Positions 20,301-58,460 of a stretch of DNA of 64,000 nt are shown in pieces. A model generated the notes under the pieces. It ran no database searches and was not told the DNA's origin. It saw only the letters and a program-made list of their open reading frames with translations. The stretch is from an uncultured delta proteobacterium (GTDB lineage Bacteria; Myxococcota_A; Polyangia; Polyangiales; Polyangiaceae), in contig CAWAIF010000003.1 in the NCBI GenBank assembly GCA_963782055.1, positions 3,680,001 through 3,744,000 on the forward strand, read 5' to 3'. The position numbers were made by a program, and so were the translations under genes. The number at the start of each line of letters is the position of its first letter. Position 1 is the first letter of the stretch.

Positions 20301-20424
20301 GTGGGGTTGGGGCTGGGGTCGGGGTCGGGGTTGGGGGCTGGGGTCGGGGTCGGGGTTGGGGTCAGGGGTCGGGGCTGGGGTCGGGGTCGGGGTTGGGGTC
20401 AGGGCTGGGGTCGGGGTCGGGGCT
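20301..20424. repeat. G-rich hexamer microsatellite (GGGGTC/GGGGTT/GGGGCT)n
   Basis: About 20 degenerate units read directly. Confidence 0.95.
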
Positions 20425-20941: not shown

Positions 20942-20967
20942 CACGCTCGCTCGCGCCTTTCGCTCAC

Positions 20968-21184
20968 GCGCTCGCGCCCGCGCCCGCGCTCGCCCTCGCG
21001 CCCGCGCTCGCCCTCGCGCCCGCCCTCGCGCCCGCCCTCGCGCCCGCGCTCGCCCTCGCGCCCGCCCTCGCGCCCGCCCTCGCGCCCGCGCTCGCCCTCG
21101 CGCCCGCCCTCGCCCTCGCGCCCGCGGCACCTGGGCTGGGGCGAGGGTCGGGGCTGGGGTCGGGGCTGGGATCGGGGGATGGGG
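20968..21184. repeat. C-rich hexamer tract (GCGCCC/GCCCTC/GCGCTC)n followed by short G-rich (GGGGCT/GGGGTC)n tract
   Basis: Read directly; junction CACCTGGGCTGGGGCGAGGGTCGGGG. Confidence 0.95.
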
Positions 21185-21246
21185 CTTTCGGGACCGCCCC
21201 GCGCGATGGCGGAAGCCGGCGGCGTGCCGGCTCCCGCGATCGCGGT

Positions 21247-21570
21247 TCAGTGGCCGCCGACCAGACGCACCAGCGTGCCGAGCACGTGATCGAACCGCCC
21301 GCGCAGCTCGGGGTCGAGCTCCTCCACGTACCCGAGCGCCGAGGCGACCTCGAAACACGAGAGCACCTCGCGCAGCGACCCCAGCGCGTTGTGATAGCGC
21401 GCCTTCCGGTTGCGACCCTGCGAGTACATGCCCTCGCCCACGTTCAGCGGCCCGCTCGCCAGCGCCCTGCGACACTGCCGAGCCAGATCCGGATCGTGCC
21501 TCTCGAGCTGCCGCACCATCGGCGCCAGCGCACGCACCAGTTCGAGCAACACCGGGTAGATTCGAAGCAT
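21247..21570 (-). CDS. Four-helix-bundle protein, copy A
   Basis: MLRIYPVLLELV...DPDLARQCRRALASGPLNVGEG...ARYHNALGSLRE; AAGGAG RBS. Confidence 0.88.
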   Translation of the reverse strand: MLRIYPVLLELVRALAPMVRQLERHDPDLARQCRRALASGPLNVGEGMYSQGRNRKARYHNALGSLREVLSCFEVASALGYVEELDPELRGRFDHVLGTLVRLVGGH

Positions 21571-21772
21571 CGAGCGACTCCTTGTTCGCGCCCGCGCCCG
21601 CTGCGCGGGGGCACCCGCCCAACCCCGCCGCGCGCAGGAGTCCGCAAGGCTGCGAGCGACAGCGAGCACCGCCCGGAGCCGCGCGCAGGGCGCGAAGCGC
21701 CCGAGCACGGCGAGGACGGCCCCGGCCTTGCGGACTCCGAGCACGGCGGGAGCATGCCCTCCCCCGAGCGAG
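21571..21772 (-). ncRNA. Conserved structured leader A (RNA or ssDNA element)
   Basis: Homologous to 57001-57162 and 58042-58242; perfect 14-bp stem 21637-21650/21725-21738. Confidence 0.65.
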
Positions 21773-21775
21773 CCC

Positions 21776-22074
<299 letters not shown>

Positions 22075-56823: not shown

Positions 56824-56995
56824 TTCCCATTCCCTTCCCCTTCCCATTCCCTCCCCCTTCCCCTTCCCCTTCCCCCTTCGCGTTCGCACTGCAGGCGCGT
56901 GGGCGGGCGCGGGCGCGGGCGCGAACGCGGGCGCGGGCGCGAACGCGAGCGCGAGCGCGAGCGCGGGCGCGGGCGAGGGCGAGGGCGGGAGAGGA
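56824..56995. repeat. (TTCCCC)n tract followed by (GGGCGC/GAGCGC/GAGGGC)n tract
   Basis: Read directly. Confidence 0.92.
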
Positions 56996-57000
56996 GGGGG

Positions 57001-57162
57001 CTCGCTCGGGGGGAGGTCATCGTCCCGCCGTGCTCGGAGTCGGCAAGGCCGGGCCGTGCTCGCCGTCCTCGCCGTGCTCGGCCTTGCCGACTCCTGCGCG
57101 CGGCGGGCTCGGGCGTTCGCCCCCCGCGCGAGGGTGCGCGGGCGCATGCAAGGAGTCGAACG
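57001..57162 (+). ncRNA. Conserved structured leader B (shorter inner region)
   Basis: Homologous to leaders A and C; stem 57036-57049/57081-57094. Confidence 0.65.
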
Positions 57163-57487
57163 ATGTTGCGTATCTATCCTGTGTTGCTGGAGCTCGTGCG
57201 GACGCTGGCACCTCTCGTGCGGGAGCTAGAGCGGCATGATCCAGAATCTCGCGCGGCAGTGCCGGCGGGCGCTGGCGAGCGCACCGCTCAACGTGGCGGA
57301 GGGAATGTACTCGCAGGGGCGCAACCGGAGGGCGCGCTACCACAACGCGCTCGGCTCCCTGCGGGAGGTGCTGGCGTGCTTCGAGGTGGCGGCGGCGCTC
57401 GGCTACTTGCCCGGGCTCGAGGACGGGCTGCGGGACCGCGTGGATCACGTGCTCGGCACGCTGGTCCGCCTCGTCGGCGCGCGATGA
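57163..57487 (+). pseudogene. Four-helix-bundle protein copy B with a +1 frameshift near 57245
   Basis: MLRIYPVLLELVRTLAPLVRELERHDP, then LARQCRRALASAPLNVAEG in a shifted frame; 325 nt versus 324 nt for copy A. Confidence 0.85.
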
Positions 57488-57539
57488 GGCGCGCGATCGG
57501 CGACGTCGCCGGAAGATCGGCGACGTCGCCGATGCGCCT

Positions 57540-57652
57540 GGGCGCGAGCGCGTGGGCGGGGGCGGGCGCGAGCGCGGGCGCGGGCGCGGGCGCGTGGGCG
57601 GGCGCGGGCGCGTGGGCGGGCGCGTGGGCGCGTGGGCGAGCGCGAGCGCGTG
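57540..57652. repeat. (GGGCGC/GCGTGG/GAGCGC)n tract between convergent four-helix genes
   Basis: Read directly. Confidence 0.9.
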
Positions 57653-57714
57653 GCCGGAACCGGGCGGGCGCGATGAGACAGGACATCGCGCCCGCCGGGC
57701 CTGCGGCCGGGCCT

Positions 57715-58041
57715 CTAGTGCGCGCCCGCCAGCCGCACCAGCGTTCCCAGCACGTGCCGGAAGCGCGCCTCGAGCGCCGCCTCCAGCTCCGGCATGTAGC
57801 CGAGCGCCGCCGCCACCTCGAAGCACGCCTGCGTCTCGCGCAGCGAGCCCAGCGCGGTGTGGTAGCGCGCCTGCTTGTTGCGCCCCCGCGCGTACGCGCC
57901 CTCCGCGACGTTGAGCGGCACGCTCGCCAGCGCCCGCCGGCACTGCCGCGCGAGATCCGGATCGTGCCGCCCGAGCTCCCGCAACCGCGGCCCGACCTCG
58001 CGCACCAGCTCCAGCACCACGGAATAGATTCGAAGGTTCAT
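57715..58041 (-). CDS. Four-helix-bundle protein, copy C
   Basis: MNLRIYSVVLELV...DPDLARQCRRALASVPLNVAEG...ARYHTALGSLRE; GAGGAG RBS. Confidence 0.88.
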   Translation of the reverse strand: MNLRIYSVVLELVREVGPRLRELGRHDPDLARQCRRALASVPLNVAEGAYARGRNKQARYHTALGSLRETQACFEVAAALGYMPELEAALEARFRHVLGTLVRLAGAH

Positions 58042-58242
58042 CACGCGCTCCTCGGCAACGCCCCGCGCACCGCGCGCGGGGGGCCCAAGCCCACACCCGC
58101 CGCGCGCAGGAGCTGTCGAGGCTGCGCGCGAAGCGCGCACCGCGCGCAGCCGCCCGGAGGGCGCGAAGCGCCCGAGGACGGCGAGCACGGCCCGGCCTCG
58201 ACAGCTCCGAGCACGGCGGGACCATCCCCTCCCCCGAGCGAG
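58042..58242 (-). ncRNA. Conserved structured leader C
   Basis: Homologous to A and B; stem 58109-58122/58195-58208. Confidence 0.65.
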
Positions 58243-58245
58243 AGC

Positions 58246-58460
58246 TCCCTTCCCGTTCCTTCCCCTTCACCTTCCGCGCCAACGGGGGGGATGACGCAAG
58301 CGCGAGGGCGAGCGCGGGCGCGAGGGCGAGCGCGAGCGCGAGGGCGAGCGCGAGCGCGGGCGCGTGTGGGGAGGGCGTCACCATCCCCTTCCCCTTCCCC
58401 TTCGCCCTTCCCTTCCCCCTTCCCCTTCGCCCTTCCCGTTCCCCTTCGCCCTTCCCCCTC
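58246..58460. repeat. Alternating (CCCTTC)-like, (GAGCGC/GAGGGC)n and (CCCTTC)n tracts
   Basis: Read directly. Confidence 0.9.

What the first reader, a model, noticed from the sequence alone, without database searches (positions are those of the whole stretch)
21571..21772. Leader shared by copies A, B and C with fully compensatory base-pair changes
In gene orientation all three read CTCGCTCGGGGG(G)AGG-N~7-TCCCGCCGTGCTC-[stem]-inner region-[stem']-TGCGCGCGGCGGG...CCCCCGCGC...AGGAG...ATG. The 14-bp stem is GGAGTCCGCAAGGC/GCCTTGCGGACTCC in A, GGAGTCGGCAAGGC/GCCTTGCCGACTCC in B (57036-57094) and GGAGCTGTCGAGGC/GCCTCGACAGCTCC in C (58109-58208). Five of six central pairs differ between A and C, yet pairing is perfect in each copy. 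An invariant outer stem CCCGCCGTGC/GCGCGGCGGG and a possible closing G5-6/C5-6 helix flank it. B lacks about 45 nt of the inner region but keeps the stem. This points to selection on structure. I do not recognise it as a known RNA family.
Basis: seen in the sequence. Interest (0 to 1): 0.88.

Follow-up and report, generated by a model that had tools for sequence, protein, structure and literature searches.

The report
Conserved RNA hairpin leading cassette genes
Each copy of a small, unexplained four-helix-bundle gene in this bacterium is preceded by the same long folded RNA leader, and the same fold also sits in the guide-RNA regions of a family of jumping genes, which links two poorly understood genetic elements.

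Summary
All three window copies have the stated stems, at the stated places. The genome holds 18 leader+gene copies with three stem "alleles"; 15 of 18 pair perfectly.

The fold is under selection. In 72 distinct homologues from this order, 94.9% of cells pair and 22 of 24 pairs show double (compensatory) changes. Slid controls give 36-47%. A closing helix P0 also covaries.

No Rfam family matches.

The gene downstream is a ~107-aa PF05635 / "23S rRNA intervening-sequence protein". It is under purifying selection, with median dN/dS 0.25.

New here: the same hairpin, with the same conserved internal loops, lies inside the non-coding ends of IS110/IS1111-type insertion sequences in Sorangium and Alphaproteobacteria. 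Published work places their bridge/seek RNAs there.

Best reading: a modular structured RNA acting in cis on the cassette mRNA, in processing, stability or translation. This mechanism is inferred, not shown.

A role as a guide RNA for the cassette's own flanks found no support.

This scan has already noted repeat-flanked four-helix-bundle cassettes with a folded leader on other myxobacterial DNA. The sequences of those notes were not available, so identity with this leader is untested.

The parts
21571..21775 (-). Copy A leader RNA, from the 5' box to the base before the ATG
   Evidence: CM hit 21616-21758, 58.5 bits
21761..21766 (-). A: P0 5' strand (CGGGGG), within the conserved 5' box GCTCGCTCGGGGG
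   Evidence: P0 covariation across genomes
21741..21750 (-). A: P1 5' strand CCCGCCGTGC, followed by the unpaired TC at 21739-21740
21725..21738 (-). A: P2 5' strand GGAGTCCGCAAGGC (stem allele 1)
21651..21724 (-). A: distal domain, holding a nested second copy of the P1/P2 internal-loop module (5' half at 21702-21711, 3' half at 21679-21688) and a GGGCGC/GCGCCC hairpin
21637..21650 (-). A: P2 3' strand GCCTTGCGGACTCC
21624..21633 (-). A: P1 3' strand GCGCGGCGGG (21634-21636 form the 3' side of the conserved internal loop)
21606..21611 (-). A: P0 3' strand CCCCCG
21578..21583 (-). A: Shine-Dalgarno AAGGAG
   Evidence: read from the sequence
21247..21570 (-). A: PF05635 / TIGR02436 four-helix-bundle gene (107 aa plus stop)
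21190..21246 (-). A: strong hairpin directly after the stop codon (approximate bounds)
21781..22057 (.). Hexamer tandem arrays upstream of leader A: (CTCTCG)n at 21781-21938 and (GGGTCG)n at 21958-22057
20967..21177 (.). Period-6/12 arrays downstream of gene A
57000..57162 (+). Copy B leader: P0 57007-57013 / 57120-57126; P1 57024-57033 / 57098-57107; P2 57036-57049 / 57081-57094 (allele 2); inner 3' halves deleted
   Evidence: (72.3 bits)
57163..57487 (+). Copy B gene, a frameshifted pseudogene
58042..58245 (-). Copy C leader: P0 58231-58236 / 58077-58083; P1 58211-58220 / 58096-58105; P2 58195-58208 / 58109-58122 (allele 3)
   Evidence: 55.7 bits
57715..58041 (-). Copy C gene (108 aa plus stop), convergent with B
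56824..56987 (.). Hexamer arrays left of the B/C twin: (TTCCCC)n and (GGCGCG)n
57534..57657 (.). Hexamer array between the convergent genes B and C
58295..58459 (.). Hexamer arrays right of the twin: (CGCGAG)n and (TCCCCT)n

Best explanation
The feature is a genuine, conserved RNA structure. It is the roughly 200-nt 5' untranslated leader of each PF05635 (four-helix-bundle, "rRNA intervening-sequence protein") gene cassette.

The leader folds into one long rod:
- a closing helix P0;
- a large internal loop with conserved bases;
- P1 (10 bp, with a near-invariant U.G pair);
- a small conserved asymmetric loop (5' GUGC-UC-GG, 3' CC-UGC-GCGC);
- P2 (14 bp, whose middle varies freely by compensation);
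- a variable tip, which is a three-way junction in relatives and nested extra copies of the P1/P2 loop module in this genome.

The Shine-Dalgarno site follows within 17-73 nt of the hairpin.

The same RNA module is also built into the non-coding ends of IS110/IS1111-type insertion sequences. It is therefore a portable module of multicopy or mobile genes, not a device private to this protein.

Most likely mechanism (inferred, not shown): the module works at the RNA level and in cis. Its 24-26-bp near-perfect duplex and conserved loops would be recognised by a factor common to all these hosts. The best candidate is double-strand-specific processing of the RNase III type, as shown for the rRNA intervening sequences that carry this gene family. 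That processing would set the 5' end, the stability and the ribosome access of the cassette mRNA. In some lineages P0 itself covers the Shine-Dalgarno site.

I put about 0.9 on "real, selected, sense-strand RNA structure" and about 0.4 on this particular mechanism.
For: Shown:
- There are 18 leader+gene units in the genome. Three P2 alleles occur (6, 3 and 9 copies) and 15 of 18 pair perfectly.
- Covariation is strong. Alignment A1 gives 95.8% paired and 15/24 double-change pairs; alignment A2 gives 94.9% and 22/24. Slid controls give 32-47%, and 0/500 shuffles reach the observed covariation score.
- P0 covaries. Perfect helices of >=8 bp occur in 14/68 cognate against 50/1360 non-cognate pairs, always at -8..-20 and +4..+17 relative to the hairpin.
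- Position and strand are fixed relative to the gene. All 14 covariance-model hits in this genome lie before PF05635 genes.
- Of 72 distinct hits in the order, 62 have a tblastn match to the gene downstream on the same strand. Sixty of these start 17-73 nt after the hairpin and two lie further away. Two more hits are followed by a divergent MLRIY homologue.
- The wobble bias favours the sense strand in this clade: 25 G.U against 4 A.C, with 18 of the 25 in one near-invariant U.G column.
- In three lineages P0 is a 12-13-bp anti-SD:SD helix with compensatory differences.
- The loop module is duplicated inside the hairpin. Seven of 10 window matches of its 5' half lie in the three leaders, against 1.4 expected.
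- The gene is under purifying selection: median dN/dS 0.25 over 75 pairs, and 13 of 18 copies are intact.
- The same module lies inside IS110-family non-coding ends. It is 5' of the DEDD transposase gene in Sorangium and in L153. It is 3' of the transposase gene, and inside the element boundary, in an alphaproteobacterial IS with at least 6 copies. It is also 3' of a DEDD ORF in Bradyrhizobium.

From papers (passages seen):
- rRNA intervening sequences that carry this gene family have a 28-bp stem with one mismatch and one bulge, and the stem is cut by RNase III (PMC4990558).
- RNAs from the non-coding regions of IS110/IS1111 elements are processed to shorter forms and bind the transposase (PMC11187229).
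Against: - No transcript data exist, so the 5' end, any processing and even transcription of the leader are not shown.
- The loop sequences are conserved across phyla more strongly than RNase III alone would need. That points to a more sequence-specific partner or to an intrinsic RNA activity.
- SD sequestration by the 5' box is not general: helices of >=7 bp occur in 6/55 cognate against 43/1100 non-cognate pairs.
- In the alphaproteobacterial set the wobble test does not choose a strand: 95 G.U against 79 A.C.
- Folding energy of single copies is only modestly better than shuffles (z -2.5 to -2.8), because the sequence is 78% G+C.
- Within this genome the three P2 alleles are shuffled relative to the two protein subtypes. 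Gene conversion therefore spreads them, and they count as few independent events.
Confidence: 0.42

Rival explanations
1. Guide-RNA scaffold. The leader would be a bridge/seek-RNA-type molecule. The cassette would be an IS110-like element whose recombinase gene has been replaced by the PF05635 gene, moved or rearranged by a DEDD recombinase supplied in trans. The large P0/P1 internal loop, or other segments, would pair with DNA.
For: [quoted passage not shown] Published work puts the guide RNAs in exactly those places (PMC11187229 and PMC11208160, passages).
- A stem with a prominent internal loop capped by a stem-loop is the published architecture of a binding loop.
- The cassettes are multicopy, dispersed and partly decayed. 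Solo copies of the RNA occur.
Against: - No DEDD transposase gene lies in or next to any cassette.
- The genome has one IS110-family gene, far away, with no such hairpin near it.
- The loop bases between P0 and P1 are partly conserved across elements with different flanks.
- Loop-to-flank matches are no better for cognate than for non-cognate cassettes: means 6.1 against 5.9 and 7.2 against 7.2 (a weak test).
- Structure has been kept by compensation in a genome that lacks a cognate recombinase.
Confidence: 0.2
2. Autoregulatory operator. The cassette's own PF05635 pentamer would bind the repeated internal-loop modules of its leader and control its own translation, or form a stable RNP.
For: - The family is related to Avd, which works with a structured RNA in diversity-generating retroelements (PMC10053308, passages).
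- The closest solved structure is deposited with five chains (2GSC), and PMC4990558 describes it as a homopentamer.
- The loop module is repeated two or three times per leader.
- Leader and gene stay strictly linked in this order.
Against: - The same module works in IS110-family and other elements that encode no PF05635 protein. That argues for a partner common to the hosts.
- Stem alleles do not track protein subtypes.
Confidence: 0.15
3. DNA-level hairpin. The inverted repeat would act in DNA, as a cruciform or single-strand hairpin. It would serve as a recombination site or as a preferred landing site for insertion sequences and group II introns, rather than as RNA.
For: - IS110/IS1111 elements are known to target palindromic repeats and attC sites (PMC11187229, passages).
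- A group II intron domain lies 200 nt after one copy (L143).
- In the alphaproteobacterial set A.C mismatches are nearly as common as G.U pairs.
Against: - In the two IS families whose boundaries were mapped, the hairpin lies inside the element, not in the target.
- The orientation is always that of the adjacent ORF.
- There is a near-invariant U.G pair: 58 of 72 and 81 of 82.
- P0 pairs with SD-proximal sequence.
- In this genome no copy occurs away from a PF05635 gene.
Confidence: 0.08
4. No selected function. The shared leader would simply reflect recent duplication of the cassette, and the perfect arms would arise from template-switch correction of quasi-palindromes.
For: - Within this genome there are only three stem alleles.
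- The leaders are about as similar to one another as the genes are.
Against: - Covariation holds across many genomes with 22 of 24 pairs compensatory, while primary sequence has diverged beyond blastn reach.
- The unpaired loop bases are conserved.
Confidence: 0.03

Closest known systems
Non-coding-end RNAs of IS110/IS1111 insertion sequences (bridge RNA, seekRNA)
   Same: - The P1-loop-P2 hairpin, its conserved loop bases and the closing helix occur inside the non-coding ends of DEDD-transposase elements. They lie on the transposase strand, 5' in IS110-type layouts and 3' in IS1111-type layouts.
- The general shape is a stem, a large internal loop and a capped stem-loop (PMC11208160, passages).
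   Different: - Here the adjacent gene is a 107-aa four-helix-bundle protein, not a recombinase.
- Only one hairpin is shared, not a two-loop RNA.
- The downstream GGGAC.../CGAAC... segment of the IS copies is replaced by the gene's ribosome-binding region.
- No loop-to-flank complementarity was found.
- I could not run the published bridge-RNA models, so I do not know which part of a bridge RNA, if any, the hairpin corresponds to.
ORF-bearing intervening sequences of 23S rRNA (Coxiella burnetii helix 45, Leptospira and others)
   Same: - Same protein family (PF05635).
- A long, near-perfect RNA stem with one small irregularity next to the gene. The IVS stem is 28 bp with one mismatch and one bulge, and RNase III cuts it.
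- Short tandem repeats lie beside the ORF (PMC4990558, passages).
   Different: - The leader is not in rRNA. The single 23S gene found is 2958 nt with no large insert, and the leader shows no meaningful similarity to it.
- The stem closes upstream of the ORF instead of enclosing it.
- The repeats are hexamers that flank the whole unit in direct orientation.
Avd accessory protein loci of diversity-generating retroelements
   Same: A PF05635-like four-helix-bundle protein working beside a structured RNA (PMC10053308, passages).
   Different: - No reverse transcriptase is part of the cassettes.
- No template or variable repeat pair was looked for.
Repeat-flanked four-helix-bundle cassettes noted earlier in this scan (e1-7342815, e1-6554997 and others)
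   Same: The layout is hexamer arrays, a folded leader, the gene, a 3' hairpin and more arrays. The units are multicopy and often occur as convergent twins. I saw the same layout here.
   Different: - Those notes are unchecked AI notes on other genomes.
- The notes returned by my look-ups mention no tie between these leaders and IS110-family non-coding ends.

Membership tests
Any Rfam 15 family | Covariance-model match at or near the gathering score | tested here: not met
   - 0 matches in the window at gathering score.
- 0 at E<=10 around copy A.
- Only chance-level hits near B and C, 18-23 bits against gathering scores of 65-78.
- On 20 loci from other phyla, only a group II intron domain beside one copy.
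IS110/IS1111 bridge or seek RNA | Encoded in the non-coding end of an element that carries a DEDD (IS110-family) recombinase gene | tested here: not met
   - The window copies precede PF05635 genes.
- The genome has one Transposase_20 hit, at C3:5525325, with no hairpin nearby: best 15.6 bits, E 0.38.
IS110/IS1111 bridge or seek RNA | Structural homology to the RNA region of bona fide IS110-family elements | tested here: met
   - The model built from the leaders hits IS non-coding ends at 43.9-71.6 bits.
- DEDD_Tnp_IS110 and/or Transposase_20 domains are confirmed in the adjacent ORFs.
- The hairpin lies inside the mapped IS boundaries.
IS110/IS1111 bridge or seek RNA | Loop segments complementary to the target and donor DNA of the same element | tested here: inconclusive
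   - For the 18 cassettes, loop-to-flank matches are equal for cognate and non-cognate pairs.
- For the Sorangium IS only the left junction was in hand, and no match of 8 nt or more was seen.
- This is a weak test.
23S rRNA intervening sequence (IVS) | Inserted in a 23S rRNA helix and excised from the rRNA | tested here: not met
   - The one LSU rRNA hit is 2958 nt for a 2925-position model.
- The leader copies lie between protein-coding genes.
- The best leader-to-23S match is 16 nt at E 0.048 among many queries.
23S rRNA intervening sequence (IVS) | Terminal stem encloses the PF05635 ORF | tested here: not met
   P0, P1 and P2 all close upstream of the start codon. The gene has its own separate 3' hairpin.
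23S rRNA intervening sequence (IVS) | ORF belongs to PF05635 | tested here: met
   - PF05635 at E 1e-8 and 2e-12; TIGR02436 at E 1e-9 and 3e-12.
- 2GSC at E 1e-4.
23S rRNA intervening sequence (IVS) | Cleavage of the stem by RNase III | not testable with these tools
   Needs an in vitro or in vivo assay.
Diversity-generating retroelement | DGR-type reverse transcriptase next to the Avd-like gene | tested here: not met
   - 13 RVT_1 hits in the genome, none inside a cassette.
- The 8 identical 642-aa-frame copies were not typed.
Integron attC / gene cassette | Co-oriented cassette arrays next to an integrase, with the hairpin 3' of each ORF | tested here: not met
   - The units are single or convergent pairs.
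- The hairpin is 5' of its ORF with fixed spacing to the SD.
- No search for an integron integrase was made.
REP / MITE-type dispersed repeat | Copies dispersed independently of any one gene | tested here: not met
   - In this genome 14 of 14 model hits precede PF05635 genes.
- The remaining 4 of the 18 units were found by blastn.
- In relatives, 5 of 72 hits are orphans.
- In Alphaproteobacteria the module does travel inside IS copies.

The most novel reading that the evidence does not exclude
The PF05635 cassettes would be recombinase-less relatives of IS110-type elements. Their leader would be a working bridge/seek-RNA-type scaffold. The small four-helix-bundle pentamer, a relative of the retroelement cofactor Avd, would be its RNA partner. 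Cassette spread, the twin arrangement and the flanking hexamer arrays would then be products of RNA-guided DNA rearrangement, either with a DEDD recombinase supplied in trans or by a mechanism not yet described.
Probability: 0.12. Interest if true: 0.9.

Novelty: new variant of a known kind. Interest (0 to 1): 0.72.

Why it matters
PF05635 ("rRNA intervening-sequence protein", four-helix bundle) is a very large family with no known function outside its retroelement relative Avd. Here its genes come with a roughly 200-nt RNA domain that has textbook-quality covariation and is absent from Rfam. That gives a concrete handle for experiments: probing, processing assays, binding assays and reporters.

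The same RNA module also sits in the guide-RNA-bearing ends of IS110/IS1111 elements in several phyla. This ties the enigmatic cassettes to the recently discovered RNA-guided recombinases.

It also suggests one of two things. Either there is a shared processing or stability module used by different mobile genes, or there is an evolutionary link between the two kinds of element. Either outcome would be useful for annotating GC-rich genomes, where these repeats break assemblies, and for understanding how bridge RNAs are made.

Tried and rejected
- **rRNA mimicry or an IVS origin in this genome.** The 23S gene has no insert. The best leader-to-23S match is 16 nt at E 0.048, in an ordinary conserved rRNA stretch. 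Dropped.
- **Expression data.** No RNA holder is listed for the locus.
- **DGR or retron link.** Neighbouring ORFs gave no Pfam or NCBIfam hits. The cassette proteins match no PADLOC defence family.
- **General SD sequestration by the 5' box.** This holds only in a few lineages.
- **The 5' box as a promoter.** Dropped because the box pairs with downstream RNA.
- **Duplex-energy test of P0.** Only a modest difference: -32.5 against -29.3 kcal/mol, 47 of 67 cognate pairs better, Wilcoxon p 0.001.
- **Guide-loop complementarity to cassette flanks.** None found.
- **IS110 transposase genes beside orphan hairpins in relatives' loci.** None found within the roughly 1.5-kb flanks held.
- **blastn of the leader in 60 relatives.** Only weak partial hits. 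The covariance model was needed.
- **Literature.** Three full-text searches found no description of an RNA motif upstream of PF05635 genes. The first of these was too broad to be useful.
- **Earlier-notes look-ups.** Look-ups by place and by sequence gave nothing relevant.

Full report
**What is there**

- A 5' box GCTCGCTCGGGGG.
- About 10 nt of spacer.
- CCCGCCGTGC, then TC.
- A 14-nt arm, an inner region, and the complementary arm.
- T, then GCGCGCGGCGGG.
- A G-rich stretch, CCCCCG, a Shine-Dalgarno site and ATG.

The arms are GGAGTCCGCAAGGC in copy A, GGAGTCGGCAAGGC in B and GGAGCTGTCGAGGC in C. Each pairs perfectly with its partner. Single-sequence folding gives the same long hairpin in all three copies. 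The energy advantage over shuffles is modest (z -2.5 to -2.8) because the sequence is so G+C-rich.

**The unit it belongs to**

The ORF behind each leader encodes a protein of about 107 aa.
- It matches PF05635 ("23S rRNA-intervening sequence protein") and TIGR02436 ("four helix bundle protein").
- Its closest solved relative is 2GSC from Xanthomonas. PMC4990558 describes that structure as a toroidal homopentamer (passages).

blastn of leader plus gene finds 18 units in the genome, plus fragments.
- 13 of the 18 genes are intact. Copy B is frameshifted.
- Across 75 usable paralogue pairs the median dN/dS is 0.25, so the protein is under purifying selection.

Each unit has the same layout:
- tandem arrays of period 6 or 12;
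- the leader;
- the gene;
- a strong 3' hairpin;
- more arrays.

The genome holds 90 such arrays at TRF score >=60. Of these, 30 lie within 1.5 kb of the roughly 20 loci. Arrays on the two sides of a unit, or of a convergent twin such as B/C, are in direct rather than inverted orientation.

**Within-genome variation**

- The 18 leaders carry three P2 alleles: 6, 3 and 9 copies.
- 15 of 18 pair perfectly. One exception is a pseudogene with one mismatch, one is a hybrid with two mismatches, and one has its 3' arm disrupted by an insertion.
- Alleles do not follow the two protein subtypes (MLRIY... and MNLRIY...). They are therefore exchanged between copies and count as few events.
- The inner region is built from nested extra copies of the same module that forms the P1/P2 junction. 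The 5' half is GCCGTGCTCG and the 3' half is CTGCGCGCGG.
- A and C each have two nested modules. Three long copies elsewhere have three. B has lost the inner 3' halves.

**Covariation in other genomes**

- The protein family is multicopy in relatives: 27 of 61 genomes at E<=1e-10, with 7-17 matches per genome in the same genus. The genes often form convergent pairs.
- blastn barely finds the leader there. Reading upstream of the genes shows the same architecture with different helix sequences.
- A MAFFT alignment of 21 hairpins from ten genomes (nine relatives plus this one) gives 95.8% paired cells for P1 (10 bp) plus P2 (14 bp). Fifteen of 24 pairs have changes on both sides. The covariation score is 0.49 against 0.03-0.11 for slid partners, and 0 of 500 shuffles reach it.
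- A covariance model built from this alignment finds 14 hits in the own genome, all in front of PF05635 genes. The four long or disrupted copies are missed.
- The model hits 21 of 101 genomes sampled evenly from the order, with up to 18 copies each.
- The 72 distinct hits collected from loci give 94.9% paired, and 22 of 24 pairs are compensatory.

**What follows the 72 hits**

- 62 have a tblastn match to the gene downstream on the same strand. Sixty of these start 17-73 nt after the hairpin; two lie further away, at +165 and +493.
- 2 are followed by a divergent MLRIY homologue.
- 5 are orphans.
- 3 are artefacts or lack downstream sequence.

**Conserved unpaired and wobble positions**

- A U.G pair in P1 is present in 58 of 72 sequences.
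- The loop 5' UC against 3' U..C is conserved.
- The words UCAAGG / CCUUGA close P2.
- G.U pairs outnumber A.C mismatches 25 to 4 in the first alignment, although 18 of the 25 come from one column.

**The closing helix**

- A word 8-20 nt before the hairpin pairs with a word 4-17 nt after it.
- The words differ between genomes: CTCGGAAG/CTTCCGAG, TCTCTCGGG/CCCGAGAGA, TGCTCGTG/CACGAGCA and others.
- Perfect helices of >=8 bp occur in 14 of 68 cognate pairs against 50 of 1360 non-cognate pairs. For >=7 bp the figures are 24 of 68 against 172 of 1360.
- In three lineages P0 is 12-13 bp long and covers the Shine-Dalgarno site. This is not general.

**The wider family**

A pattern made of the conserved loop and stem-end bases, with free helix positions, was scanned over one genome per species.
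- Most hits are in Alphaproteobacteria: Bradyrhizobium, Caulobacteraceae, Rhizobium, Novosphingobium, Nitrobacter and Mesorhizobium.
- Others are in Acidobacteriota, Myxococcota, Ignavibacteriota and Binataceae.
- Of 81 instances in the 80 loci fetched, only five are followed by a PF05635-like ORF, and all five are labelled as Myxococcota (Nannocystaceae, Polyangiaceae, Myxococcales) or 'delta proteobacterium'.

In five genomes reached through these loci the hairpin is present in 6 to 60 copies, many with identical scores. That is the behaviour of an insertion sequence.
- In Sorangium it lies about 175 nt inside the left end of an element and 5' of a gene with DEDD_Tnp_IS110 and Transposase_20 domains. 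A solo copy of the RNA region also exists.
- In an alphaproteobacterial genome it lies in the 3' non-coding region of an IS110-family element, 169 nt from the right end, in six copies.
- Two further loci show it 5' and 3' of DEDD_Tnp_IS110 ORFs.
- In Bradyrhizobium it also ends a multicopy element whose ORF has HTH and IS481-type zipper domains.
- The 82 distinct sense-strand hits of this set keep the structure (90.6% paired), with free covariation at the unconstrained positions. Here A.C mismatches (79) are nearly as frequent as G.U pairs (95).
- In the IS copies the hairpin is followed by two direct 7-9-nt words, after GGGAC and after CGAAC. These words change together from element to element. 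I could not explain them.

**What the papers say**

Published work puts the guide RNA of these elements in exactly these non-coding ends.
- The region is upstream of the transposase gene in the IS110 type and downstream in the IS1111 type.
- The RNA is essential, is bound by the transposase and is processed to a shorter form (PMC11187229, passages).

Rfam has no model that matches either the leaders or 20 of the IS-type loci.

**Reading**

Three things are shown.
- There is a selected RNA-type structure.
- It has a fixed position and strand in front of a gene that is itself under selection.
- The same module sits inside IS110-family non-coding ends.

The mechanism is not shown. The module serves elements that encode quite different proteins (a four-helix bundle, a DEDD recombinase, an HTH protein). 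Its partner is therefore more likely a host factor, or the RNA itself, than the cassette protein.

The 24-26-bp near-perfect duplex, and the precedent of RNase III cutting the stems of rRNA intervening sequences that carry this gene family, make double-strand-specific processing the best single guess. Such processing would define the 5' end, stability and ribosome access of the mRNA.

The strong conservation of the loop sequences is the main argument that something more specific is involved.

**The bolder reading**

The bolder reading is that the cassettes are recombinase-less IS110-like elements and the leader is a guide-RNA scaffold. Two things count against it.
- The genome has a single, distant IS110-family gene with no such hairpin.
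- Loop-to-flank matches are no better for cognate cassettes. That test is weak.

**Limits**

- There are no transcript data.
- The alignment used for the largest count was fitted to the model, though the MAFFT-only alignment gives the same picture.
- Same-genome and same-genus copies are not independent.
- The pattern scan fixed 25 bases, so only the free positions of that set are informative.
- IS boundaries were mapped for two elements only.
- Supplements of the bridge-RNA papers, which hold their covariance models, were not seen.
- Earlier notes of this scan describe the same kind of cassette with a folded leader on other myxobacterial DNA.

Noticed in passing
window 20302-20422, 20967-21177, 21781-22057, 56824-56987, 57534-57657, 58295-58459: Tandem arrays of period 6 or 12 flank every cassette, in direct orientation. 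Thirty of the genome's 90 such arrays (TRF score >=60) lie within 1.5 kb of the roughly 20 cassette loci. Relatives have arrays of other hexamers at the same place. Their origin and role are unexplained.
   Followed up: partly
window 57163-58041: Copies B and C form a convergent twin separated by a hexamer array, and B is a frameshifted pseudogene. The same twin recurs at C3:2575378/2576663, and convergent pairs are common in relatives.
   Followed up: partly
loci L140-L218 (e.g. L165, L262, L266), 20-110 nt after the hairpin: In the IS-type copies two direct 7-9-nt words follow GGGAC and CGAAC. They change together between elements, for example GGAAGAATG/AAAAGAATG, GGAGAAAC/AAAGAAAC and GAGGAGATG/AAGGAGATG. 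They might be guide segments or alternative pairing partners. This is not resolved.
   Followed up: partly
L162, L163, L174 and L110, about 110-200 nt after the hairpin: A 7-codon ORF with a good SD is followed by a conserved TGATCCCAAG...CCAAACCGGGGCAAGTCC stretch in four unrelated records. It may be the end of another element.
   Followed up: no
G000:C3:1993752, 2003506, 2765038, 3170145, 4456120, 5274567, 5379624, 6984743: Eight RVT_1 hits with identical scores sit in open frames of 642-692 aa, probably one group II intron in eight copies.
   Followed up: partly
L143:720-954: A group II intron D1-D4 domain (133.9 bits) starts about 200 nt after a copy of the hairpin in Bradyrhizobium. This could be intron homing next to the structured element.
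   Followed up: no
G000:C3:2534326-2534637: One cassette has an insertion of about 70 nt that replaces the inner part of the 3' arm of P2. The gene behind it is intact and 99% identical to copy A.
   Followed up: no
L077, L078, L079, L083, L075 (more distant genomes of the order): More distant PF05635 genes lack this hairpin. Each is instead preceded by a different, long, nearly perfect hairpin that ends at or over the SD, again behind hexamer arrays. The design appears to be conserved beyond the sequence family.
   Followed up: no
L263 / L277 (Bradyrhizobium): A multicopy element (identical in six copies over at least 560 nt) has an ORF with HTH and IS481-type leucine-zipper domains but no detected catalytic domain. 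The ORF runs into the hairpin, and the element ends about 300 nt after the start of the hairpin.
   Followed up: partly
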